IMG/VR virus record: IMGVR_UViG_2706796412_000001
Location: 64,001 to 128,000 of that record
Direction: 5' to 3' (one strand)
Length of the DNA: 64,000 bases
Source of the DNA: Bixzunavirus tonenili
Lineage: Duplodnaviria; Heunggongvirae; Uroviricota; Caudoviricetes
The notes beneath the pieces are model-generated. The model did not search any database and was not told the origin of the DNA. It saw only the letters and a program-made list of their open reading frames with translations. The position numbers and the translations under genes are program-made. This document shows, piece after piece, positions 31,562 through 59,067 of the stretch (the stretch's first letter is position 1; the number at the start of each line of letters is the position of its first letter).

Positions 31562-31589
31562 TTGCCGCATCGCGACAGTCTGATACGCT
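31562..31589 (+). promoter_or_regulatory. SigA-type promoter for first tRNA block
   Basis: TTGCCG-16-(TGa)TACGCT. Confidence 0.55.
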
Positions 31590-31596
31590 TGCTTTC

Positions 31597-31714
31597 GTGT
31601 TCAAGAGTTCCGGCATCGGTCGACCCGAAAGCCCGCGATGGCGATATCAGCCGTCGCTGGGTCGGTAGCTCACACCTTCCTCCGCGCTCTGCTGATATCG
31701 CGCCTCCGACACCA
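31597..31714 (+). ncRNA. putative structured leader ncRNA
   Basis: 11-bp perfect stem GCGATATCAGC/GCTGATATCGC, paired termini, ends ACCA next to tRNA-Pro. Confidence 0.4.
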
Positions 31715-31788
31715 CGGGGTGTAGTTCAGTTTGGAAGAGCGCTTGGTTTGGGACCAAGATGTCGCAGGTTCGAATCCTGTCACCCCGA
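31715..31788 (+). tRNA. tRNA-Pro(TGG)
   Basis: Cloverleaf; CTTGG-TT TGG GA-CCAAG. Confidence 0.95.
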
Positions 31789-31805
31789 CTCAGCGACTTC
31801 CCCGT

Positions 31806-31881
31806 TGGGGTGAAGCCGATCCGGAAGGCAGCGGTCTCCAAAGCCGTCTCATAGCGGGTTCGAATCCCGTCACCCCTGCCA
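31806..31881 (+). tRNA. tRNA-Trp(CCA)
   Basis: Cloverleaf; GCGGT-CT CCA AA-GCCGT; CCA encoded; 1:72 U-U mismatch. Confidence 0.85.
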
Positions 31882-31882
31882 A

Positions 31883-31968
31883 GCCGCACATGCCCAACTG
31901 GTGTTGGGAGCAGACTGTAAATCTGTGGCCCTAGGGACGGTGAGGTTCGATTCCTCAGTGCGGTACCA
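31883..31968 (+). tRNA. tRNA-Tyr(GTA)
   Basis: Long variable arm; GCAGA-CT GTA AA-TCTGT; CCA encoded. Confidence 0.95.
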
Positions 31969-31977
31969 CGTGTTAAT

Positions 31978-31994
31978 CTGTAGCTCGACTACAG
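31978..31994. promoter_or_regulatory. perfect palindromic operator-like site CTGTAG-N5-CTACAG
   Basis: Exact palindrome matching the recurring motif. Confidence 0.55.
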
Positions 31995-32136
31995 GGCAAC
32001 ACGGAGAGTGACCTCATGTTTCACTACTGCTCCAGCTGCGGAAGCTCGGCTCTGGCCAATCACCAGAGCACTTGCCGCACTTTCAGGTATGACATAACCC
32101 GGGCACAGGGCCCGGGTCCGCCTGGAAGACCCGACC

Positions 32137-32577
32137 ATGAGCAGAACAGACAAGACCAAGCCCCTGCACGTCAAGCTCGCCCACGGCGATCTGGCCTGGC
32201 AGGAAGTTCACGACCACACTGACGGCCCTTGTGACCTCCCCAGGCCACGAGATCTCGACAGCTACGGCTGGACGTCGTCGTCCGGGCGTCGGTGTTACCG
32301 CACCTTCGTCTACACCGGTACGCACATCTGCTGCTGCAGCCTGTGCCACGGCGACGGAGGTTGGGATCTCCGTCCTGGCAAGCGTCAGCGCATTGAGAGC
32401 AAGCGCGTCGTGCGCGACTGGGAGGACGAGTCCGGTCACTGGTGTGGCCGACCGGCCTGCCAGGAGTGTCTGGACACCTACCTTGCCTACGAGTACGAGA
32501 ACGATGATGTCGTCGAGAACAGGTTGCTGATGGCACAGCCTGAAGCGGTTCAGTACCTCGGCGTCAGCAAACTTTGA
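32137..32577 (+). CDS. hypothetical Cys/His-rich protein
   Basis: 146 aa; HxxGxC, CCCxxC and CxxPACxxC motifs. Confidence 0.6.
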   Translation: MSRTDKTKPLHVKLAHGDLAWQEVHDHTDGPCDLPRPRDLDSYGWTSSSGRRCYRTFVYTGTHICCCSLCHGDGGWDLRPGKRQRIESKRVVRDWEDESGHWCGRPACQECLDTYLAYEYENDDVVENRLLMAQPEAVQYLGVSKL

Positions 32578-32586
32578 GATTGGTTC

Positions 32587-32616
32587 TTGACAGGGTCTAG
32601 CAACCTGTCCTACCGT
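32587..32616 (+). promoter_or_regulatory. strong SigA-type promoter
   Basis: TTGACA-18-TACCGT upstream of Pth2-like gene and main RNA array; GACAGG/CCTGTC inverted repeat overlaps it. Confidence 0.75.
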
Positions 32617-32628
32617 GAAGGCATGTAG

Positions 32629-33003
32629 GTGACAAACCCTCAAGCCCCCGACAAGTTCTACATCGCTGTCCGGGGTGATCTCCCGCCCGGTCTCCAGCTG
32701 GCCCAGAGCGTTCACGCCATGGCCGAGTTCTGGGACCAGCATCCCACTTTCGCCCGCAGCTGGCGGCATCGTTCCAACTTCCTGGTCGTGGTCTCCGTGC
32801 CCGACGAGGAGGCTCTGCTCGCGCTGGCCAGTGAGGCCGCGATCGGCAAGGGGCTGTGCACCACGCTGGTCTGCGAGCCGGATCTGGGCGACGAACATAC
32901 CGCGCTGGCCATCCAACCTGGACCAGCTGCCGCAGCTCTGTGCGCGTCGTTCAAGCTGGCGCTGCGCAATGCGGTAGACATGGATCGGGAGGTCGTGGGG
33001 TAA
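32629..33003 (+). CDS. peptidyl-tRNA hydrolase 2-like protein (Pth2/PTRHD1 fold)
   Basis: YIAVRGDL...AQSVHA...LVVVSVPDEEAL...EPDLG...TALAI signature. Confidence 0.8.
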   Translation: MTNPQAPDKFYIAVRGDLPPGLQLAQSVHAMAEFWDQHPTFARSWRHRSNFLVVVSVPDEEALLALASEAAIGKGLCTTLVCEPDLGDEHTALAIQPGPAAAALCASFKLALRNAVDMDREVVG

Positions 33004-33012
33004 CCAAGACAA

Positions 33013-33089
33013 GCCGGAGACCAGGACGGACCTGAGCCAAGCTCGGTCGCCGGTCGGTCAGGAGGTATCGAGCCCTCCCTCCGGCACCA
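33013..33089 (+). ncRNA. non-canonical tRNA-like RNA (possible Leu-CAA, reduced D arm)
   Basis: Perfect acceptor GCCGGAG/CTCCGGC plus ACCA; T-like arm GGAGG/CCTCC with 8-nt loop. Confidence 0.55.
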
Positions 33090-33090
33090 G

Positions 33091-33160
33091 GTCCCGCAGC
33101 AGGAAAACAGATCATGCTGATTCAGCTGCTCACGAGGCTCGTGACCTCGGCGGGACACCA
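33091..33160 (+). ncRNA. non-canonical tRNA-like RNA (D-armless)
   Basis: Perfect acceptor GTCCCGC/GCGGGAC plus ACCA; T-like arm CGAGG-CTCGTGA-CCTCG. Confidence 0.55.
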
Positions 33161-33161
33161 A

Positions 33162-33219
33162 GGGAGAGGCAGGCGTGCCAATGTCGACCAGGGTGGTTCG
33201 AATCCACCCTCTCCCACCA
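33162..33219 (+). ncRNA. 58-nt D-armless mini-tRNA
   Basis: Acceptor GGGAGAG/CTCTCCC plus ACCA; canonical T arm GGTGG-TTCGAAT-CCACC. Confidence 0.65.
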
Positions 33220-33286
33220 GCCCGGTGACATGGGGAACAGGGTTTCGCGCGAATCCTGTAGGAGGTTCGAGTCCTTCCCCGGGGCA
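33220..33286 (+). ncRNA. non-canonical tRNA-like RNA with extended anticodon stem
   Basis: T arm GGAGG-TTCGAGT-CCTTC; CAGGGTT/AATCCTG stem; bulged acceptor. Confidence 0.45.
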
Positions 33287-33313
33287 AACTGGACATCTCG
33301 GTGTCCAGCAAAC

Positions 33314-33384
33314 GCACCATTTGCTCAATGGCAGAGCGGCGGCTTCTAACCCCGTGAGTGCCGGTTCGATTCCGGCATGGTGCA
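33314..33384 (+). tRNA. probable amber-suppressor tRNA (CTA)
   Basis: Acceptor GCACCAT/ATGGTGC; loop TT CTA AC with 4-bp stem and C.C at 31:39; canonical D and T arms. Confidence 0.7.
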
Positions 33385-33535
33385 CAACGAGCAAGGAATA
33401 AATCCCTTGCGCTTTGCTGTGGACGCATCTACTCTGGTCAAGTCAGTTCAGCTACGGATGAGCAGACCAGGCGCCACGATTGGGCCACAGAACTTCGACA
33501 ATTCCATCGCCCAGAGCACCATCTCTGGGCCGCGT

Positions 33536-33609
33536 AGCGGTGTAGAGCAGCTAGGTAGCTCGCCGGGCTCATAACCCGGAGGACGCGTGTTCGAATCACG
33601 CCACCGCCA
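33536..33609 (+). tRNA. tRNA-fMet(CAT), initiator type
   Basis: 1:72 mismatch (A.C); three G-C pairs in anticodon stem. Confidence 0.9.
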
Positions 33610-33618
33610 CGATGCCAA

Positions 33619-33669
33619 GGCCGACGAGTAGTTCGGTTATCGCTGGTTCGATTCCTGTCGCTCCGGCCA
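33619..33669 (+). pseudogene. tRNA remnant (acceptor plus T arm)
   Basis: GGCCG/CGGCC ends and GGTTCGATTCC; no normal D or anticodon arm. Confidence 0.35.
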
Positions 33670-33823
33670 CAAACCCGGAGCGTTTCCCCAACGTTGGTAG
33701 GGGAGACCGGACCTCACATCATGTCTTGGCACCCAAGTATCCCCGGTCTGGTCATCCGGCGGGCGCGCGGTCATTAGGGTCATCCTCCTGAACGCCGGGC
33801 GTGGAACAAAATGACCACTCAGT

Positions 33824-33894
33824 GCGCCTTTGGCGGAATGGCTACGTGCTCGGCTGCAACCCGAGTTATCCCGGTTCGACTCCGGGAGGGCGCT
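33824..33894 (+). tRNA. tRNA-Cys(GCA)
   Basis: CTCGG-CT GCA AC-CCGAG; U73. Confidence 0.95.
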
Positions 33895-33899
33895 CGCAT

Positions 33900-33973
33900 G
33901 GTCCGTTGGAGTAGATGGATATCTCGCCACCCTCTCAAGGTGGAGATCACGGGTTCAAGTCCCGTACGGACTG
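33900..33973 (+). tRNA. tRNA-Glu(CTC)
   Basis: CCACC-CT CTC AA-GGTGG. Confidence 0.95.
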
Positions 33974-33975
33974 CT

Positions 33976-34047
33976 GTGGCCGTAGTTCAGCGGTAGAACA
34001 CCGGGTTGTGATCCCGGACGCCGTCGGTTCGAATCCGACCGGTCACC
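33976..34047 (+). tRNA. tRNA-His(GTG)
   Basis: CCGGG-TT GTG AT-CCCGG; C73; position -1 is T. Confidence 0.95.
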
Positions 34048-34051
34048 CAGT

Positions 34052-34205
34052 GGGCCAGGGTCCTGTGAGTACCTGTATTGAGGCGCTCCCGCCGCCAAGA
34101 AGCCCACAAGCGGGAAATCCCGACCGTCACGTGACCCCTGCGTGGCGGCTCTGCGTAAGCCACCACCTCAGTCCTGCGCGCGGGACGGGGAGGGTACAGG
34201 GGCCC
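34052..34205 (+). ncRNA. putative 154-nt structured ncRNA between tRNA-His and tRNA-Ala
   Basis: Long bulged closing stem plus several internal hairpins. Confidence 0.45.
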
Positions 34206-34207
34206 TC

Positions 34208-34280
34208 GGGCCTATAGCTCATCTGGTAGAGCGCCTGCCTTGCAAGCAGGAGGCGGCAGGTTCAAGTCCTGTTAGGTCCA
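34208..34280 (+). tRNA. tRNA-Ala(TGC)
   Basis: G3:U70; CCTGC-CT TGC AA-GCAGG. Confidence 0.95.
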
Positions 34281-34390
34281 CGCTAAAGTGGTGTAGTTCC
34301 AGATCTTCGCCTGACGAAAACCGGTGCGACGGCACTCAATCCGGTCAACCGAGGGGTTTGACGAAGGTCAGGTCTTCGTCGGTCACCCGT

Positions 34391-34468
34391 GCCGGGATGG
34401 TCGTCGAGGGCAAGCACACCGGGCTCATAACCCGGAGGCGGGAGGGCTGGGAGGTCTCCCCTGCGGCT
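34391..34468 (+). ncRNA. degenerate tRNA-like element carrying an exact copy of the fMet anticodon arm
   Basis: CCGGGCTCATAACCCGGAGG at 34419-34438 identical to 33563-33582; no TTC loop. Confidence 0.5.
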
Positions 34469-34470
34469 CT

Positions 34471-34542
34471 GCCGTCATAGCTCAGTTGGTAGAGCACTGG
34501 CCTGAAAACCCAGTGGCCGAGGTTCGATTCCTCGTGTCGGCA
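34471..34542 (+). tRNA. tRNA-Phe(GAA)
   Basis: Loop CT GAA AA; canonical D and T arms. Confidence 0.92.
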
Positions 34543-34625
34543 CGCTGGCGCCTGGCAGTGCGGGTCGCAGCCCCGGATAAGCCGCTGTCAGGCCCGGTAA
34601 CCCCTGGGAGGGATCTCAGGGAACT

Positions 34626-34698
34626 GTCCGTTTAGCTCAGCTGGAAGAGCGCTCGGTCCACACCCGAGAGGCCGCAGGTTCGATCCCTGCAATGGACA
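34626..34698 (+). tRNA. tRNA-Val(CAC)
   Basis: CTCGG-TC CAC AC-CCGAG (C33). Confidence 0.92.
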
Positions 34699-34700
34699 CG

Positions 34701-34775
34701 CTGTAAGGCCGAATGACGTCGATTATCTGCTCCATTGTTGCAGGCCGAGGGTTCGATTCCCAGGCTATTTACGGG
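34701..34775 (+). pseudogene. degenerate tRNA-like element
   Basis: Weak acceptor CTGTAAG/TTTACGG; GGGTTCGATTCCC T loop; irregular anticodon arm. Confidence 0.35.
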
Positions 34776-34820
34776 ACTGGCTGTCCTATCGGTGTCTCCA
34801 CCATGTCTTGCAGTACACAT

Positions 34821-34892
34821 GCCTTCGTAGCTCAGTGGTAGAGCTGCCGCCTCTTAAGCGGTAGGTCGTTGGTTCGAATCCAGCCGGGGGCA
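34821..34892 (+). tRNA. tRNA-Lys(CTT)
   Basis: GCCGC-CT CTT AA-GCGGT. Confidence 0.95.
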
Positions 34893-34896
34893 CTTT

Positions 34897-34971
34897 GGTC
34901 GGGTGGTCTGTTGGCAGGCCGGTCGGGTTTTCACCCCGGCGTCATCGCGGGTTCGATTCCCGTCCCGACTG
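34897..34971 (+). tRNA. tRNA-Glu(TTC)
   Basis: TCGGG-TT TTC AC-CCCGG. Confidence 0.9.
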
Positions 34972-35101
34972 CTCTGGGTTTACCACCCGGCTGATGTGCA
35001 CGTCGGCCAAACGGTACACGGGCCTCGGGGGTGTCCTGCCGAGGCGCTGCGGGCACACCGGAACACAACGCTCTCCCGCGCCGGTCACAGGGCACCACAA
35101 C

Positions 35102-35173
35102 GCGGGTGTGGCCGAATGGCTCAGGCACCAGACTTCCACTCTGGCTAAGCAGGTTCGATTCCTGTCATCCGCT
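35102..35173 (+). tRNA. tRNA-Gly(TCC)
   Basis: CCAGA-CT TCC AC-TCTGG. Confidence 0.95.
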
Positions 35174-35233
35174 CGTCATGGTCCTGATGACGGACCAGCA
35201 CCGTGGGGACAGGTGCAGAAGAGTCCCCCATTT

Positions 35234-35306
35234 GCTGCTGTAGCTCACCTGGCAGAGCGTCGGCGTCGTATCCCGAAGGCATCCGGTTCGAGTCCGGACA
35301 GCAGCT
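35234..35306 (+). tRNA. tRNA-Thr(CGT)
   Basis: Loop GT CGT AT; canonical D and T arms. Confidence 0.88.
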
Positions 35307-35315
35307 CAGACGTCT

Positions 35316-35388
35316 GCCCTTGTAGCTCAGTGGTAGAGCACCGACCTTGTAAGTCGGGTTGTCCCGGGTTCGATTCCTGGTTGGGGCC
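35316..35388 (+). tRNA. tRNA-Thr(TGT)
   Basis: CCGAC-CT TGT AA-GTCGG; weak inner acceptor pairs. Confidence 0.88.
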
Positions 35389-35448
35389 CGGCAGGAGGTG
35401 TCCACTCTATGGACTTAATGGGCCTGTGGCTTCGCCTCCTTCCTCAAT

Positions 35449-35520
35449 GCTGATTTAGCTCAGTGGTAGAGCGCCGACTTGGTATGTCGGAGGCCCCGGG
35501 TTCGATCCCCGGATTCAGCT
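35449..35520 (+). tRNA. tRNA-Thr(GGT)
   Basis: CCGAC-TT GGT AT-GTCGG. Confidence 0.93.
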
Positions 35521-35590
35521 CGTTGTACCTGTCACCTCCTTCAGGAGGGTCTCGAATCTGTAGAGACCCGAACCTGAAGAGGGGCATGTC

Positions 35591-36667
35591 ATGGCCGCAC
35601 TTTCACAGCTCGACCGCGAGTTCGTCGACAACGTGGTGTCCGAGGAGATGGCCGCCACCAAGCAGCCGGGCATGATGCTGAAGATCACCGGCCCCGCCGG
35701 GGACTACGAGCTGACCCGAGGTCTGCGTACCGTGGCGCCGGACAAGCCGATGAGCTTCGACGCGAAGTTCCGCGCGGCCAGCGTCACCAAGACACTCACC
35801 GCCATGGCGATTCTCCGCGAGGTCGACAAGGGCAAGATCAGTCTTGACGACGTCGTCGACAAGTACGTCGCCCAGATTCCCAACGGCAGGCAGTTGACCG
35901 TCAAGCAGGTCCTCATGATGCGATCGGGTCTGGCCGAGTATCAGACCGACATCATCATCGCGCTGACCTTCCTGGCATTCCCCACCTGGCCCACATTCAG
36001 CCCGGAGGGGGCCATGCAGGCCGTTCGGCGCAACAAGGCCGTCTTCAAGCCCGGCGCCCAGTACATGTACTGCGGGTCCAACTACCACCTGCTGGCCCTG
36101 ATCCTGGAGAAGGTCAACGGTGGCAAGGACTGGAAGCGCATCCTGATGGACGACCTGGTCAAGCCGCTGGGCATGACTTCCACCTCGTTCCCCGACGGCG
36201 CGACCATTCCGCAGCCCGAGGTCAAGGGGTACACCACCGGCGTCTTCAAGAAGTGGTCGGAGAACGGCAAGGTCAACGCAAACTTCCACGGTCCTGCCGG
36301 AGGCATGGTCACCACCATGGGTGACATGCACAAGTGGGCCACCGCGATGCGAGACGGGGTGTTTCTCAAGCCCGAGACCCGCCAGCTGCAACACAGCCTG
36401 TTCTCGTCGGTGCCCTGGACCGACGAGGGGCCTACAGCCTTCGGTTACGGCATGGGTCTGCTGAGCTTCGGCAAGTGGTTCGGTCACGACGGATGGATTC
36501 CAGGCTACGGAACGGTCGCGATGTACGAGCCAGTCTCCGGAGCGGTGTTCACCGGTGTGGAGAACATGAAGACGCCGAACCTGAAGATGCTGTCTCGTGT
36601 CTTCGTGCGGGTGGCTGGCCATCTCTATCCCGGATCCATGGACACGCCCACCTACTCTCTGGGATAA
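35591..36667 (+). CDS. serine hydrolase, beta-lactamase/DD-peptidase fold
   Basis: SxxK (ASVTK), catalytic Tyr in YCGSNY, GHDG; 358 aa with no signal peptide. Confidence 0.85.
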   Translation: MAALSQLDREFVDNVVSEEMAATKQPGMMLKITGPAGDYELTRGLRTVAPDKPMSFDAKFRAASVTKTLTAMAILREVDKGKISLDDVVDKYVAQIPNGRQLTVKQVLMMRSGLAEYQTDIIIALTFLAFPTWPTFSPEGAMQAVRRNKAVFKPGAQYMYCGSNYHLLALILEKVNGGKDWKRILMDDLVKPLGMTSTSFPDGATIPQPEVKGYTTGVFKKWSENGKVNANFHGPAGGMVTTMGDMHKWATAMRDGVFLKPETRQLQHSLFSSVPWTDEGPTAFGYGMGLLSFGKWFGHDGWIPGYGTVAMYEPVSGAVFTGVENMKTPNLKMLSRVFVRVAGHLYPGSMDTPTYSLG

Positions 36668-36674
36668 TGGCGAC

Positions 36675-36833
36675 ATGGCCAACAAGCGCGCCCAGCCCGG
36701 AGACCCCGGTCAGGCTGGAAAACTCGACCCTCGCGGGCCGAACAAGTTCGAGCCGACAACCAAGGCTCGTGGCCCGGCCAAGCCGGGCGAGCCGGGCGGA
36801 GATCACTCTCTGCCGGGCGACAACAAGAAGTGA
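36675..36833 (+). CDS. small G/P/K-rich protein (52 aa)
   Basis: MANKRAQPGDPGQAGKLDPRGPNKFEP...; fills gap before tRNA-Gly. Confidence 0.4.
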   Translation: MANKRAQPGDPGQAGKLDPRGPNKFEPTTKARGPAKPGEPGGDHSLPGDNKK

Positions 36834-36843
36834 AAGCTTCGAT

Positions 36844-36916
36844 GCGAAGGTAGCTCAGCTGGTAGAGCGCCACCTTGCCAAGGTGGAGGTCGCGGGATCG
36901 TAACCCGTTCTTCGCT
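36844..36916 (+). tRNA. tRNA-Gly(GCC)
   Basis: CCACC-TT GCC AA-GGTGG; atypical T loop ATCGTAA. Confidence 0.9.
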
Positions 36917-36920
36917 CTCT

Positions 36921-36995
36921 GGCCCTGTGGAGCAGCTAGGAGTGCTCGCCACCCTGTCACGGTGGAGGTCGACGGTTCAAATCCGTTCAGGGTCG
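36921..36995 (+). tRNA. tRNA-Asp(GTC)
   Basis: CCACC-CT GTC AC-GGTGG; G73. Confidence 0.95.
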
Positions 36996-36998
36996 CAA

Positions 36999-37077
36999 TG
37001 CAGAAGAGATTCGGGGACCGAACTCGACTCACTCCACGGGCGCCCGGGGTGATGTAGCTCAAGGAGAGCCTTCTGTA
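36999..37077 (+). ncRNA. circularly permuted tRNA mimic (YrlA/Y-RNA-like topology)
   Basis: 8-bp closing stem enclosing a 5-bp/7-nt arm, a hairpin and TAGCTC-AAGGA-GAGC D arm, in that order. Confidence 0.45.
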
Positions 37078-37082
37078 GCTAT

Positions 37083-37154
37083 GCCTCACTAGCTCATTGG
37101 TAGAGCCGCTCGCTCATAACGTGCAGGTACCTGGTTCGATTCCAGGGTGAGGTA
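37083..37154 (+). tRNA. tRNA-Met/Ile2(CAT), elongator type
   Basis: Loop CT CAT AA; paired 1:72. Confidence 0.9.
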
Positions 37155-37159
37155 CGCAA

Positions 37160-37236
37160 GCCTGTTAGCGGACTGGTCGTCCGATCCAAGCTGATAACTT
37201 GGCGTAAGCGGTGTTCGATTCACCGAGCAGGTACCA
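37160..37236 (+). tRNA. tRNA-Ile(GAT)
   Basis: CCAAG-CT GAT AA-CTTGG; CCA encoded. Confidence 0.92.
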
Positions 37237-37297
37237 TCCAGCAGCGAGCGGGAGTGCACCCCGTGTTCGGCGAACCGTGGGGATGGATGCCCACACT

Positions 37298-37369
37298 GCC
37301 TCTATGGTCCAACGGAGATGACGCCGGTCTACGGAACCGGAGATGCGTGTTCGACTCGCGCTAGGGGCA
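37298..37369 (+). tRNA. tRNA-Arg(ACG)
   Basis: CCGGT-CT ACG GA-ACCGG. Confidence 0.95.
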
Positions 37370-37412
37370 CAAAGGGAGAGGAATATAAATCCTGGCTTGC
37401 CTCTCCCCTCAC

Positions 37413-37484
37413 GTCCGTGTAGCTCAGGGGTAGAGCGCCTGCTCGACACGCAGGAGGACCGAGGTTCGAAACCTCGCATGGACA
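37413..37484 (+). tRNA. tRNA-Val(GAC)
   Basis: CCTGC-TC GAC AC-GCAGG (C33). Confidence 0.92.
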
Positions 37485-37578
37485 CGGGGCATTGGTCTCC
37501 TCACCCTCGTCATGGGAGACCCGGTAGGGAGCGTCCCCAAAGGCCGTCGGCGCAAGCCGGGAAACGGGCTCCCACACT

Positions 37579-37648
37579 GTCCTCGCCAGCGGATCTGGCA
37601 CGAGGTTTCCGAAGCCACGTTGTGCAAGTTCAACTCTTGCCGGGGACG
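37579..37648 (+). tRNA. atypical tRNA-Arg(CCG) with shortened D region
   Basis: Acceptor GTCCTCG/CGGGGAC; loop TT CCG AA; T arm GCAAG-TTCAACT-CTTGC. Confidence 0.5.
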
Positions 37649-37656
37649 CGTCATCT

Positions 37657-37729
37657 GCCTCTGTAGCTCAACGGACAGAGCAACGCGGTCCTAACGCGGT
37701 GGCTGGAGGTTCGAATCCTCTCGGAGGCA
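37657..37729 (+). tRNA. tRNA-Arg(CCT)
   Basis: Loop GT CCT AA; canonical D and T arms. Confidence 0.92.
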
Positions 37730-37743
37730 CGCGGTACCCAGAA

Positions 37744-38176
37744 GGGCCTGACAGGTTTCGACTGGTCGATGGACAACTGAACAGCGGGCGAGTGTTGGCC
37801 GCACTTCTACTCTGAGTGAACGCGGCAACTGATAAACGCAACCGACACGGATGCAACGGTGACCGACGCCGAGATCGAGGCCTTCTTCGCTGAAGAGGCT
37901 GCCGCTCTCGTCTGAGGGAACCAGCTTGGCTCAGCGTGCTGCTGTGCAGCGGCCAGGCTTCATCTCTAACAGCAGCGAACGGACATGAGGGAGCGCAAAC
38001 CCTCGTCCCAAACATCATGAATGCGTCGCACGGGCTCCAGCGTCAGGGGCCAGAGGTGGGAAACGGTGTGAAACTCCTGTCCTGGGGATCACCGACCGAT
38101 ACGCCAAACCAGGACTACGCCCGTAGAACGCAGTGAGAAAGACACCAGGACGGGGGTTCGATTCCCCCCAGGTCCA
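37744..38176 (+). ncRNA. ssrA: tmRNA; tag reading frame 37838-37915 ATDTDATVTDAEIEAFFAEEAAALV*
   Basis: GGGCCTG/CAGGTCC-A acceptor with G3:U70, 5' GACAGGTTTCGAC, 3' GGGGGTTCGATTCCCCC T arm, resume codon after ATAAAC. Confidence 0.93.
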
Positions 38177-38270
38177 CGTTTGGTCGACCTTGCGGTGACG
38201 ACCAGGGTTAGCGCCGGTAGGCGAGGATTGGCGGCGGACATTTCCACATGACCCTGGTGACCAGACACCT

Positions 38271-38345
38271 TGGGGTATGGTGGCAATCTGGCAGTCCCGC
38301 CGGACTTTGACTCCGGAGGTGCAGGTTCGAGTCCTGCTACCCCAT
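38271..38345 (+). tRNA. tRNA-Gln(TTG)
   Basis: U1:A72; CCGGA-CT TTG AC-TCCGG. Confidence 0.92.
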
Positions 38346-38349
38346 CGAC

Positions 38350-38425
38350 GCCCTTGTAGCTCAGTGGACAGAGCGGCGAGCTTCTACCTCGCGGGCCGGG
38401 AGTTCGAATCTCTCCAGGGGCACCA
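38350..38425 (+). tRNA. tRNA-Arg(TCT)
   Basis: GCGAG-CT TCT AC-CTCGC; A20; CCA encoded. Confidence 0.95.
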
Positions 38426-38426
38426 C

Positions 38427-38499
38427 GGGCCTATAGCTGAGACGGATTAGCACCGAGCTTTTAACTCGGGGAGGTCGGATCGTTACCGGACTGGGCCCA
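38427..38499 (+). tRNA. tRNA-Lys(TTT)
   Basis: CCGAG-CT TTT AA-CTCGG; atypical T arm ATCGTTA. Confidence 0.82.
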
Positions 38500-38563
38500 C
38501 GTGAAAAGTGGTCTGTCCACGCATGCGGCACCAGCGATCACCCGATGACCTGGAGCGAGCACG

Positions 38564-58200: not shown

Positions 58201-58701
58201 CGTCGCGGCCTGTCGGCGCCGGTGAAGTGGGCCAAGATGACTCTGGACGAGCAGGTGGCTGAGATTGCCGACAAGCGCCGGATCAAGCCCGAGGACTACC
58301 CGATCTACGACTTCGACGACCCGCAGGTCATCCACGACCTGGAGGTCGAGATGCTCGGCACCTTCGTCAGCCATGACCCGATGGCCAAGTACGCCAGGAT
58401 GATCGAGGGCGTGTGCATCCGGCATCCGATGGACTACGACGACTACGAGGTCGGCGCTCAGTTCGTCGTCGGCGGCAAGCTCGTCAAGGCCCGGACTCAC
58501 CAGCAGAAGAACGGCAAGCAGATGGCCTTTCTGGCCGTGCACTGGAACGAGGAGGACTTCGAGATTCTCGCGTTCGCCGACGCCTGGGCCCGCTGCCGAC
58601 CGCTGCTCAAGATCGGCTCACCGGTGGCCTGTCAGGTGATCAAGCTCAGAGGCGGCGCCGCGTCGCTGAGCACGGTGGAACGACTCGACACGATCGTCTG
58701 A
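55300..58701 (+). CDS. dnaE: DNA polymerase III alpha subunit
   Basis: PHP (LHNHSETS, AITDH), GRGSAGGSLV, FPDIDVDF, YAFNKSH, OB fold; TTG start after GAGGAG; no intein seen. Confidence 0.95.
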   Translation: MSSGKAALHNHSETSILDGRSRPEEMAARAKDCGDESVAITDHDDVGGHFRFQKACQDAGVKPILGAEQRWMHNIADSRDRKTGGSDSSHIVLLAENNTGLRNLWALSSLAYEPEQFYKKPQLEPRLLRAHREGLWASDGCMLTRFAEYVVNDQDDLARQEWAVLLNIFGDHFYSELHTWQFIDPISPEQQALNAKMTKINQAKVRFAKEMGVPLVVVNDAHYAYERQWKEHRAIWDMSTGSWKKDQVEERGHAADWMMNADEIRHYMGLHGVGASVIEEAMKNSGWIAEQCNAEINGTLLAMPRLYATDAEDAAAFRRSIEEGFKKFVVDKGLPESVYRERLEYEAKLIIDKNMAGYFNVVADYVLAARNGTYHQAITGDPKPKPCLCGPGRGSAGGSLVTYVMGITSIDPIKYDLMFERFINPDRPDFPDIDVDFQKSKKSLVKQYLGKRYGEDNVVSIGTRTHSRPRQMLQDLCRAEGIPFKEMKQMIDLVEQVDQIAPFEEGMELPEDEEPPTWDEVLQEIGGDLAPYAKKYPELFDKMGKMVNMVRGVGVHPAGVLVNTDPVFPGLIPTRRKGGVDVRATQFDMYEIETLGGVKDDLLANKGLDVLDIARDLIYERHGVWIDYDGFGFGVPEDCPPDKVIALNDDKYLSDPAIYEQIDRGQTAGLFQVNTPAGTKLAMRFKPRSVVDMADLASINRPGVTRVPGLLDKYIERRHGRDPVTYDHPLMESITGPSSSMNTYGILVYQEQLIRTAKELAGFTPGEAERLRKGIGKKKMEIINELEPKFLDGCMANPEFVRLGGTRKVADRIWQSLKAAGAYAFNKSHGVGYALQPCQEAWVKHYYFDEFITGCLVVHTDKTIRFLRECRQRKRPVLPPDVNQSGAGFTLTDEGIRFGLTDISGIGDAAMPDILAKRPFKDLDDFLTRASKGGGAKKGVVDALIKVGAFDFTGEHRQVMLEKVYRHRRGLSAPVKWAKMTLDEQVAEIADKRRIKPEDYPIYDFDDPQVIHDLEVEMLGTFVSHDPMAKYARMIEGVCIRHPMDYDDYEVGAQFVVGGKLVKARTHQQKNGKQMAFLAVHWNEEDFEILAFADAWARCRPLLKIGSPVACQVIKLRGGAASLSTVERLDTIV

Positions 58702-58710
58702 AGGGCAACC

Positions 58711-59067
58711 ATGAGCAAGGAACTGGTCCTCTCGGTGACACTGGCCGACTGTGTCGTCGAGACCAAGCGCGGACATGGTAAGGGCGGACAGAACCGGAAT
58801 ACCAGGGACACTGCCGTGCGCATTGTGCACCCGCCATCCGGCGCCGTCGGCGAGAGCCAGGAGGAGCGCAGCCAGCTCCAGAACAAGAAGACCGCGTTCC
58901 GCCGGATGGCCGAGTCGCCCAAGTTTCAGCTGTGGCTCAAGCGGCAGGTGGCCAACGACGACCTGATCAAGGCGCAGGTCGAGCGGGAGATGTGGCCGGT
59001 CAACCTCAAGACCGAGGTCCAAGAAGACGGCAAGTGGGTCGAGAAGACGGATAGGGAACTGACGTGA
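58711..59067 (+). CDS. stand-alone peptide release factor domain protein (RF-1/ArfB-like)
   Basis: GKGGQNRNTRDTAVRIVHPPSG...ERSQLQNK; intact GGQ. Confidence 0.9.
   Translation: MSKELVLSVTLADCVVETKRGHGKGGQNRNTRDTAVRIVHPPSGAVGESQEERSQLQNKKTAFRRMAESPKFQLWLKRQVANDDLIKAQVEREMWPVNLKTEVQEDGKWVEKTDRELT

What the first reader, a model, noticed from the sequence alone, without database searches (positions are those of the whole stretch)
31562..38499. Translation takeover and rescue island: about 27 tRNAs, tmRNA, Pth2-like protein, suppressor tRNA and structured spacers
Seen: two SigA-type promoters drive about 7 kb that is nearly all RNA genes, and almost every spacer over 50 nt folds into a cloverleaf-like, multi-hairpin or pseudoknotted element. 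A GGQ release-factor homologue lies at 58711. Known: large tRNA sets plus tmRNA are reported for Bxz1-like phages and are thought to counter host tRNA-cleaving defences. Inference: the spacer RNAs are an unrecognised second layer of this system, and tmRNA, Pth2 and the GGQ protein together cover three routes for clearing stalled ribosomes or peptidyl-tRNA.
Basis: partly seen in the sequence, partly recalled or inferred. Interest (0 to 1): 0.7.

Follow-up and report, generated by a model that had tools for sequence, protein, structure and literature searches.

The report
Phage tRNA island hides Y-RNA genes
This is the already well-known tRNA, tmRNA and Pth2 island of Bxz1-type mycobacteriophages; most of its spacers are unconserved filler, but a few hold unannotated small RNA genes, chiefly two Y RNA-like RNAs that go with the phage's own Ro60 protein.

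Summary
The window comes from a subcluster C1 (Bixzunavirus, Bxz1-like) mycobacteriophage. The inventory is confirmed: 27 tRNAs, a tmRNA, a Pth2-family gene, a CUA-anticodon tRNA and a stand-alone GGQ/RF-1 protein at 58711. All of these are already annotated in relatives.

Two claims are overstated. "Nearly all RNA genes" is wrong: 35% of the region is known RNA genes and about 30% is protein-coding. "Almost every spacer is structured" is also wrong. As a class, spacers are the least conserved sequence in the island. Several have no match in any other phage record. One encodes a 52-aa protein.

Five spacers do hold real tRNA-derived RNAs:
- 33613-33731 is a Y RNA-like (YrlA-topology) gene. It is conserved from C1 to the C2 phages and to metagenomic phage contigs, with 37 of 40 pairs covarying. 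It was found only in records that encode Ro60, except one 14%-complete fragment.
- 34701-34813 is a divergent paralogue of it.
- 33013-33286 is a tandem block of non-decoding, CCA-ending tRNA-like RNAs with compensatory changes.
- 34391-34469 and 37579-37649 are degenerate tRNA copies.

This genome encodes Ro60 about 36 kb downstream. This scan has noted Ro60 with Y-like RNAs in tRNA arrays on other DNA before. Nothing here ties the spacers to tRNase defence.

The parts
31715..31968 (+). tRNA-Pro(tgg), tRNA-Trp(cca) and tRNA-Tyr(gta)
   Evidence: ARAGORN; model R1
32137..32577 (+). 146-aa ORF with no family match; a cassette shared only with Cane17 among the 8 relatives
32629..33003 (+). Pth2-family peptidyl-tRNA hydrolase-like protein (124 aa)
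   Evidence: PF01981 31.4 bits, over the cut-off; phrog_1866; below the NCBIfam equivalog cut-offs
33013..33286 (+). Tandem block of 3-4 non-decoding tRNA-like RNAs. Elements 1-3 have a 7-bp acceptor stem, a T-arm, discriminator A and encoded CCA, and lie 0-1 nt apart. Element 4 is absent from most relatives.
   Evidence: R1 hits of 10.4-19 bits against a null maximum of 9.9; 99.7% of cells paired, 3 double-sided changes, none in slid controls; CCA encoded in 3 of 3 against 4 of 27 tRNAs; alignment A3
33314..33385 (+). tRNA with anticodon CUA (amber-suppressor-like; ARAGORN's 'Pyl' label rests on the anticodon alone)
   Evidence: annotated as 'tRNA suppressor (cta)' in relatives
33536..33610 (+). 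tRNA-Met(cat), copy 1
33613..33731 (+). Y RNA-like gene Yl-1 with YrlA topology: closing helix, G-N-C-G-A bulge, UCGGUUAUCG block, T-arm, closed acceptor-like hairpin, D-like hairpin
   Evidence: z -3.57 and the same fold in Phabba; Rfam YrlA end-to-end but 20 bits; R2 finds homologues in 9 diverse loci; 37 of 40 pairs covary; co-occurs with TROVE/Ro60
33824..34281 (+). tRNA-Cys, Glu(ctc), His and Ala, with the unconstrained His-Ala spacer 34049-34207
   Evidence: spacer z +0.37; 0 compensatory and 10 broken pairs
34391..34469 (+). Degenerate tRNA-Met-like element with an intact CAU anticodon arm but poor acceptor, D and T arms
   Evidence: R1 26.2 bits; 26-nt match to the relatives' tRNA-Met1 gene, which is 97-100% identical to the window's; present in every C1 relative scanned with R1
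34471..34699 (+). tRNA-Phe, an 82-nt insertion unmatched elsewhere (34544-34625, two hairpins), and tRNA-Val(cac)
   Evidence: no match to the insertion in any phage record
34701..34813 (+). Y RNA-like paralogue Yl-2, sharing the frame AAGGCCGA / UCGNUUAUC / CAUGUCUUG with Yl-1. It carries an exact GNCGAANG motif (GCCGAAUG) and a T-arm with a UUCGAUU loop.
   Evidence: R2 17.7 bits, E 0.003, full length; 16-17 bits in relatives; all variable pairs stay paired; deleted in Pinkcreek
34821..35521 (+). tRNA-Lys(ctt), Glu(ttc), Gly(tcc), Thr(cgt), Thr(tgt) and Thr(ggt), with variable or unmatched spacers
35522..35590 (+). Strong 23-bp imperfect hairpin covering the ribosome-binding region of the next gene
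   Evidence: z -4.4 to -4.7; 96-99% conserved in C1; no compensatory change
35591..36667 (+). 358-aa beta-lactamase-fold protein, annotated in relatives as a minor tail protein with lysin activity
   Evidence: PF00144 E 2e-54; phrog_382
36675..36833 (+). Conserved 52-aa protein gene lying inside a supposed spacer
   Evidence: phrog_3706 E 1e-37; annotated as a CDS in relatives
36844..37485 (+). tRNA-Gly(gcc), Asp, Met(cat) copy 2, Ile, Arg(acg) and Val(gac), with largely unmatched spacers at 36997-37082 and 37237-37297
37579..37649 (+). Uncalled non-canonical tRNA-Arg(CCG)-like gene
   Evidence: Alignment with Pinkcreek tRNA-Arg(ccg) and a Phabba tRNA-Arg shows a compensated T-stem; R1 20.9 bits; annotated 'pseudo tRNA-Arg-ccg' in ET08
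37657..37730 (+). tRNA-Arg(cct)
37744..38179 (+). tmRNA
   Evidence: RF00023 75 bits against 47; ARAGORN tag peptide
38271..38500 (+). tRNA-Gln(ttg), Arg(tct) and Lys(ttt)
58711..59067 (+). Stand-alone GGQ (RF-1 domain) protein of 118 aa, between the DnaE-like and RecA-like genes
   Evidence: PF00472 61 bits; phrog_3122; translation shows GGQ

Best explanation
The region is the known translation island of Bxz1-type (subcluster C1) mycobacteriophages. It holds 27 canonical tRNAs, a tmRNA and a Pth2-family gene, interrupted by a tail-lysin gene and small ORFs.

Its spacers are a mixture, not one system:
(1) Two spacers are genes for Y RNA-like RNAs, at 33613-33731 and 34701-34813. Each has a closing stem with a CGA(A) bulge plus a rearranged tRNA-like domain. 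By inference they bind the phage's own Ro60/TROVE protein, encoded about 36 kb downstream. By analogy with the bacterial and Thermus-phage Ro60, Y RNA and PNPase particles, they would steer host exonucleases in handling structured or damaged RNA.
(2) One spacer (33013-33286) holds tandem non-decoding tRNA-like RNAs that keep the acceptor stem, T-arm and CCA.
(3) Two spacers hold degenerate tRNA copies.
(4) The rest are a small protein gene, simple hairpins and unconserved mosaic filler. This filler comes from gain and loss of tRNA cassettes and homing endonucleases.

By inference, the tRNA-like ends let host RNase P and RNase Z cut all of these RNAs out of the same long precursor as the tRNAs.

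Shown here: the gene families, the structures, the covariation, the co-occurrence with Ro60 and the lack of conservation elsewhere. Inferred: Ro60 binding, processing and physiological role.
For: Identity of the island: 95-97% identity to Cane17, Bxz1, Breeniome and others, with 136 records covering at least 80% of it. Matching annotations in relatives.

Yl-1: same multi-branch fold in C1 and C2, with z -3.57 and -2.70. Rfam YrlA aligns end to end in the order T-arm, closed hairpin, D-arm. The core motif is present in 10 viral contigs, and each copy folds alike on its own. Model R2, built from C1 sequence alone, recovers the copies at E 5e-17 to 4e-3 and hits only this locus in the 64-kb window. 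91.2% of cells are paired against 39-47% in slid controls. 37 of 40 pairs change on both sides. The covariation score is 0.56 against 0.04-0.09, and no shuffle of 500 reaches it.

Link to Ro60: TROVE is present in the window's own genome at 165 bits, in 5 of 5 metagenomic contigs and in both C2 genomes.

Yl-2.

Tandem block.

Filler.

Published basis: Chen et al. 2014 (PMC4201824) reported YrlA RNAs in mycobacteriophages. A phage Ro60 binds Yrl RNAs and host PNPase (PMC12135203).
Against: Yl-1 scores only 20 bits on Rfam YrlA against a gathering score of 69. It lies about 36 kb from Ro60, whereas published YrlAs lie within 4 kb. No RNA-seq could be obtained, so expression, ends and processing are unproven.

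The covariation alignment was fitted to the model.

Yl-2 is weakly scored and is absent from the viable phage Pinkcreek.

For the tandem block, the three double-sided changes rest on one split between two allele groups.

The co-occurrence sample is small, and no background rate of TROVE in phages was measured.
Confidence: 0.75

Rival explanations
1. One reading: the spacer RNAs as a whole form a second, anti-defence layer that counters host tRNA-cleaving toxins, alongside the tRNA set.
For: Spacers fold somewhat better than the genome background, with mean z -1.67 against -0.42. Several contain tRNA-like elements that could act as decoys.
Against: As a class, spacers are less conserved than third codon positions of the two large embedded genes. 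Four are wholly or largely without a match in any other phage record. None except Yl-1 is shared with the C2 phages. Most show broken rather than compensated pairs. Sense and antisense strands fold equally well. Viable relatives lack or replace many spacers. No tRNase link was found.
Confidence: 0.08
2. Everything between the tRNAs, including 33613-33731 and the tandem block, is decaying debris of dead tRNA genes with no function of its own.
For: tRNA arrays gain and lose genes, and relatives carry extra or missing tRNAs at these sites. 34391-34469 looks like a decayed tRNA-Met copy. ET08's annotators marked several as pseudo-tRNAs.
Against: Debris would not keep 37 of 40 pairs through changes on both sides across unrelated phages. 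It would not track Ro60. It would not compensate every changed stem column in the tandem block.
Confidence: 0.07
3. The tRNA-like and Y-like elements are real RNAs that act without Ro60. They might serve as RNase P/Z 'punctuation' that separates the Pth2 and lysin mRNAs from the tRNAs, or as mimics that soak up tRNA-binding host factors.
For: The tandem elements keep exactly the parts RNase P and RNase Z recognise (acceptor stem, T-arm, CCA). The block starts 10 nt after the Pth2 stop codon. Yl-1 lies 36 kb from Ro60.
Against: Punctuation does not explain the conserved closing helix, the CGA bulge and the UCGGUUAUCG block of Yl-1. It also does not explain the strict co-occurrence with TROVE.
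Confidence: 0.15

Closest known systems
tRNA/tmRNA island of Bxz1-like (subcluster C1, Bixzunavirus) mycobacteriophages
   Same: Same gene order and 95-97% nucleotide identity. The tmRNA tag is identical. Relatives annotate the same Pth2 gene, the CUA tRNA and the tail-lysin gene (PMC1475703; PMC4131195).
   Different: This phage has spacers and insertions found in no other phage record: 34544-34625, 35390-35448, 36997-37068 and 37258-37297.
YrlA-type bacterial and phage Y RNAs with Ro60/Rsr (Rfam RF02553; Chen et al. 2014, PMC4201824; Thermus phage phiLo Ro60 with Yrl1/Yrl2, PMC12135203)
   Same: A 5'-3' closing stem flanks a bulge with a CGA(A) motif. The tRNA-like domain runs in the order T-arm, closed acceptor-like hairpin, D-arm. 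A TROVE/Ro60 gene is present in the same genome, on the same strand.
   Different: The score is far below Rfam's gathering score (20 against 69). The element lies inside the tRNA array about 36 kb from Ro60, not within 4 kb. It has an extra conserved UCGGUUAUCG block. Chen et al. discarded hits that overlapped tandem tRNAs or lay more than 4 kb from Ro60, so this copy would not have been reported.
Phage T4 stable RNAs species 1 and 2 (rnaC, rnaD) in the T4 tRNA cluster (recalled from memory, not checked here)
   Same: Small stable RNAs of unknown function that are encoded among phage tRNA genes and processed with them.
   Different: No sequence or structure comparison was made, and T4 has no Ro60.
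ArfB / PrfH stand-alone GGQ rescue factors
   Same: The 118-aa protein has an RF-1 domain with a GGQ motif.
   Different: It is below both equivalog cut-offs (22.8 against 100, and 53.5 against 166). Its C-terminal part is acidic rather than the basic tail of ArfB.

Membership tests
Bixzunavirus (C1) tRNA/tmRNA island | Synteny and high nucleotide identity with Bxz1-type genomes | tested here: met
   136 records cover at least 80% of the region at 94-97% identity; matching feature tables
tmRNA (RF00023) | Score over Rfam's gathering score, plus a tag reading frame | tested here: met
   75 bits against 47; ARAGORN tag peptide
tmRNA (RF00023) | Phage-encoded SmpB partner | tested here: not met
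   No PF01668 match in the complete 160,985-bp genome; a host SmpB would be needed
Pth2 (PF01981) | Pfam gathering score | tested here: met
   31.4 bits against 23, covering profile positions 2-103 of 115
Pth2 (PF01981) | NCBIfam equivalog score (true Pth2 orthologue) | tested here: not met
   19.2 against 126, and 18.4 against 82; catalytic residues were not examined
RF-1 / GGQ domain (PF00472) | Domain score and GGQ motif | tested here: met
   61 bits against 35; GGQ is visible in the translation
ArfB | Equivalog score and a basic C-terminal tail | tested here: not met
   22.8 against 100; the C-terminal 40 residues are rich in Glu and Asp
YrlA Y RNA (RF02553) | Rfam gathering score | tested here: not met
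   20 bits against 69 for 33612-33735. The accepted-type copy beside Ro60 in this genome also falls short at 31.4 bits.
YrlA Y RNA (RF02553) | Closing 5'-3' stem enclosing a T-arm, a closed acceptor-like hairpin and a D-arm, supported by covariation | tested here: met
   End-to-end alignment to the model; 37 of 40 pairs covary and 91% of cells are paired
YrlA Y RNA (RF02553) | GNCGAAN(0-1)G / CGAA motif in the bulge | tested here: inconclusive
   Exact in Yl-2 (GCCGAAUG) and in Phabba's Yl-1 (GUCGAAUG). Window Yl-1 has GCCGAC, matching GNCGA only.
YrlA Y RNA (RF02553) | Ro60/TROVE gene in the same genome | tested here: met
   G000:134155-135183, 165 bits; 7 further element-bearing records also have TROVE
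YrlA Y RNA (RF02553) | Location within 4 kb of Ro60 (criterion of Chen et al. 2014) | tested here: not met
   The element is at genome position 97613-97731 and Ro60 at 134155, about 36 kb away on the same strand
YrlA Y RNA (RF02553) | Physical binding to Ro60 | not testable with these tools
   Needs a pull-down or gel-shift assay
Amber suppressor tRNA | 7-nt anticodon loop with U33, CUA and A37 in a cloverleaf over the tRNA thresholds | tested here: met
   ARAGORN; Rfam tRNA 57.9 bits; R1 72.8 bits
Amber suppressor tRNA | Read-through of UAG in vivo, and the charged amino acid | not testable with these tools
   TAG ends 23 of 132 crude gene calls, so it is an ordinary stop codon here

The most novel reading that the evidence does not exclude
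The Y RNA-like genes and the tandem CCA-ending tRNA-like RNAs form one Ro60-centred RNA-surveillance module that is deliberately embedded in the tRNA operon. It would be co-transcribed and co-processed with the phage tRNAs. Its role would be to triage, protect or recycle tRNAs, or to decoy host enzymes that act on tRNA ends, during infection of mycobacteria rich in tRNA-targeting toxins.
Probability: 0.15. Interest if true: 0.75.

Novelty: new member of a known kind. Interest (0 to 1): 0.45.

Why it matters
The island itself is textbook for Bxz1-type phages. What is useful is a corrected map. About 650 nt that public records treat as empty spacer turn out to be RNA genes. None of the eight fully tabulated relatives annotates the Y-like or tandem elements.

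The Y RNA-like gene behind tRNA-Met1 is conserved across two phage genera and in uncultured phages. It travels with Ro60. It would have been missed by the published survey, which reported only candidates within 4 kb of Ro60.

M. smegmatis phages are easy to engineer. This gives a tractable system for asking what a viral Ro60-Y RNA particle does, and why its RNAs sit among tRNA genes. The result also warns against reading structure into every GC-rich spacer.

Tried and rejected
- The search for related loci with Pth2 returned only one dereplicated relative.
- MAFFT could not align the variable hairpins of the Y-like homologues, so a covariance-model alignment was used instead.
- Supplementary tables of Chen et al. 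2014 are not held and the 2020 review is not held. I could not see which ET08 locus they reported.
- The 'permuted tRNA mimic' at 36999-37077 is rejected. It gets no hit from Rfam YrlA at E up to 5, from R1 or from R2. Its z is -1.5. Positions 36997-37068, which make up most of it, match no other phage record.
- The 'multi-branched RNA' at 34052-34205 is rejected: z +0.37, with 0 compensated and 10 broken pairs.
- The 'structured leader' at 31597-31714 is rejected: z -1.08, with 2 broken pairs.
- Other Rfam YrlA hits in the island (31736-31853, 33912-34030, 35274-35344, 37613-37692, 38320-38374) span two adjacent tRNAs. Chen et al. describe exactly this dimer artefact.
- RtcB, a frequent neighbour of bacterial Rsr, is absent from the genome.
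- Pseudoknots were not tested.

Full report
IDENTITY. The 7-kb region matches subcluster C1 (Bixzunavirus, Bxz1-like) mycobacteriophages at 94-97% identity. In 136 phage records one match covers at least 80% of it. The annotated records of Cane17, Breeniome, Bigswole, Pinkcreek, Wally, ET08, Catera and Yassified show the same order of tRNAs, the 'peptidyl tRNA hydrolase', the CUA tRNA, the tail-lysin gene and the tmRNA with the identical tag. The tRNA and tmRNA content of Bxz1-type phages is published (PMC1475703, PMC4131195). The island as such is already known.

THE OBSERVATION. ARAGORN finds 26 tRNAs and the tmRNA. Rfam and relaxed ARAGORN add tRNA-Lys(ttt) at 38427-38500, giving the '27' of the finding. 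Pth2 passes Pfam's cut-off but not NCBIfam's equivalog cut-offs. The protein at 58711-59067 is a stand-alone RF-1/GGQ domain. It fails the ArfB and PrfH cut-offs and has an acidic C-terminal part.

The region is not 'nearly all RNA genes'. Known RNA genes cover 35% of it. Three ORFs cover 27%, including a 358-aa beta-lactamase-fold tail protein. The supposed spacer 36668-36843 encodes a conserved 52-aa protein.

The phage has no SmpB and no RtcB. TAG ends about 17% of crude gene calls.

Promoters could not be verified. The single consensus match, at 36639-36668, is what chance would give. The first 71 nt of the leader (31562-31632), which hold the proposed promoter at 31562, have no match in five of eight relatives.

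ARE THE SPACERS STRUCTURED? Nine of 20 spacers of 42 nt or more have MFE z below -2, with a mean of -1.67. The antisense strand gives -1.45. Random length-matched pieces of the window give -0.42, with 15% below -2. So there is only a modest, strand-symmetric excess. The strongest folds are plain long hairpins.

ARE THEY CONSERVED? Across eight C1 relatives, spacers are the least conserved class.

| Class | Identity where aligned |
|---|---|
| Spacers (83% alignable) | 90.3% |
| tRNAs | 93.0% |
| Third codon positions of the two large genes, Pth2 and CDS358 | 93.5-95.7% |
| tmRNA | 98.7% |

Relatives carry HNH endonucleases, extra tRNAs or small ORFs at spacer positions. Pinkcreek lacks six tRNAs together with their spacers. 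In searches of 50,697 phage records, matches stop exactly at tRNA boundaries. Four stretches therefore have no homologue anywhere: 34544-34625, 35390-35448, 36997-37068 and 37258-37297. Outside C1, essentially only the tRNA genes match; the one exception is taken up below. For most spacers conserved within C1, substitutions break predicted pairs at least as often as they preserve them. The His-Ala spacer, for example, has 0 compensated and 10 broken pairs.

tRNA-DERIVED ELEMENTS. I built a covariance model from the window's own tRNAs (R1) and ran it without filters. It finds eight plus-strand hits of 10 bits or more inside spacers. In 14.6 kb of tRNA-free sequence, both strands searched, nothing reaches 10 bits.
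- 37579-37649 is a non-canonical tRNA-Arg(CCG). It is homologous to annotated genes in Pinkcreek and Phabba and has a fully compensated T-stem. ET08 already lists it as a pseudo-tRNA.
- 34391-34469 is a degenerate tRNA-Met copy with an intact CAU anticodon arm.
- 33013-33286 is a head-to-tail run of three to four elements. They keep a 7-bp acceptor stem, a T-arm, discriminator A and encoded CCA, but have no usable anticodon arm.

Encoded CCA occurs in 3 of 3 of the tandem elements against 4 of 27 true tRNAs. Among eight phages, 99.7% of stem cells pair, against 40-56% in slid controls. All eight variable stem columns sit in pairs that stay paired (three double-sided changes and one U-A/U-G/C-G series), and only one cell in the whole block is unpaired (Catera, column 160). 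The interior of element 2, by contrast, is completely replaced between the two allele groups. This argues for selection on the acceptor and T-arm pairing. It rests largely on a single split between two allele groups.

A Y RNA-LIKE GENE. The only spacer sequence shared with the C2 phage Phabba is a 29-nt block just after tRNA-Met1. The roughly 120-nt elements around it fold into the same closed multi-branch shape in both phages, with z -3.57 and -2.70. One of their hairpins has completely different stem sequences in the two phages.

Rfam's YrlA model aligns to 33612-33735 from end to end in the order T-arm, closed acceptor-like hairpin, D-arm. The score is only 20 bits against a cut-off of 69. 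The copy beside Ro60 in this same genome reaches only 31 bits.

The genome encodes a TROVE/Ro60 protein at 134155-135183. The core motif TCGGTTATCGNNGGTTCRATTCC occurs in ten viral contigs. Nine of these carry the whole element. Each copy folds alike on its own, and the closing helices all differ in sequence.

A second model built from C1 sequence alone (R2) recovers all copies at E 5e-17 to 4e-3. It finds only this locus in the whole window. On its alignment, 91.2% of cells pair, against 39-47% in slid controls. 37 of 40 pairs change on both sides. The covariation score is 0.56 against 0.04-0.09, and no shuffle of 500 reaches it. The alignment is model-fitted, which inflates such counts. The independent folds agree with it.

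TROVE is present in 5 of 5 metagenomic contigs that carry the element, even in fragments estimated at 27-46% complete. It is also present in both complete C2 genomes. It is missing only from a 14%-complete fragment and from L019, which carries only an isolated T-arm. Several of these contigs hold tandem arrays with further YrlA hits beside the element.

A SECOND COPY. Spacer 34701-34813 shares the frame AAGGCCGA / UCGNUUAUC / CAUGUCUUG with Yl-1. It carries an exact GNCGAANG motif. It scores 17.7 bits over the full length of R2 and 16-17 bits in relatives. All of its variable pairs stay paired. It is absent from Pinkcreek, so it is dispensable for growth.

COMPARISON WITH WHAT IS KNOWN. Chen et al. 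2014 (PMC4201824) found YrlA RNAs in 22 phages, including ET08. They reported only best hits within 4 kb of Ro60 and discarded anything overlapping tandem tRNA genes. A copy in the tRNA island would therefore not have been listed. A phage Ro60 has been shown to bind two Yrl RNAs and host PNPase (PMC12135203). None of the eight relatives' feature tables annotates anything at the Yl-1, Yl-2 or tandem-block positions. Earlier notes of this scan describe Ro60-like proteins with Y-like RNAs in the tRNA arrays of other phages. The theme is therefore not new to the scan.

VERDICT. The island is known and most spacers are mosaic filler. Five spacers do hold tRNA-derived RNAs. Two of these are new, divergent members of the Y RNA family, linked by co-occurrence to the phage's Ro60. 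Function, expression and any role against tRNA-cleaving toxins remain untested.

Noticed in passing
outside the window: own genome G000 133820-135183 (locus L015): A Ro60/TROVE gene (562-aa frame, 165 bits) is preceded by a YrlA hit (L015:1166-1244, 31 bits) and a second R2 hit (L015:1306-1377, 20 bits). tRNA-Gln(ctg) and tRNA-Asn(gtt) lie about 3 kb upstream, at 131096-131253.
   Followed up: partly
window 31806-31968, 34208-34281, 36921-36996: The tRNA genes themselves are swapped as cassettes among phages that are otherwise about 95% identical. Against some relatives, Trp is only 66% identical, Tyr 57-58%, Ala 72% and Asp 74%.
   Followed up: partly
window 35522-35590: This is the strongest fold in the island (z about -4.5). 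It is a 23-bp hairpin whose 3' arm covers the GAGGGG ribosome-binding region just before the start of the tail-lysin gene. It may be a translational control or a processing site.
   Followed up: partly
window 34544-34625: An 82-nt insertion lies between tRNA-Phe and tRNA-Val, which are 5 nt apart in most relatives. It forms two near-perfect hairpins and has no match in any of 50,697 phage records.
   Followed up: partly
window 36639-36668: This is the only sigma-70 consensus match in the island (TGGACA, 18 nt, GATAAT with an extended TG). It lies at the end of the tail-lysin gene, ahead of the second tRNA block.
   Followed up: no
window 58701-59067: The GGQ gene starts 10 nt after the stop of a 1152-aa DnaE-like polymerase gene. 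Its end overlaps the start of a RecA-like gene by 4 nt. It therefore sits in a replication and recombination operon, not with the translation island.
   Followed up: no
L022:13038-13459, L017:9140-9567, L023:6118-6527: Metagenomic phage contigs carry tandem arrays of two to three Y RNA-like elements of this type. Each of these contigs also encodes TROVE.
   Followed up: partly
L008 (ET08) 466-903: ET08 has a 438-nt insertion between tRNA-Pro and tRNA-Trp, where the window has 16 nt.
   Followed up: no
L009 (Catera) 1696-1767 and L006 (Wally) 1695-1768: In Catera and Wally the tRNA at the suppressor position is a different allele, only 61% identical. Catera annotates it as tRNA-Arg(tct) and Wally as tRNA-Other(cta).
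   Followed up: no
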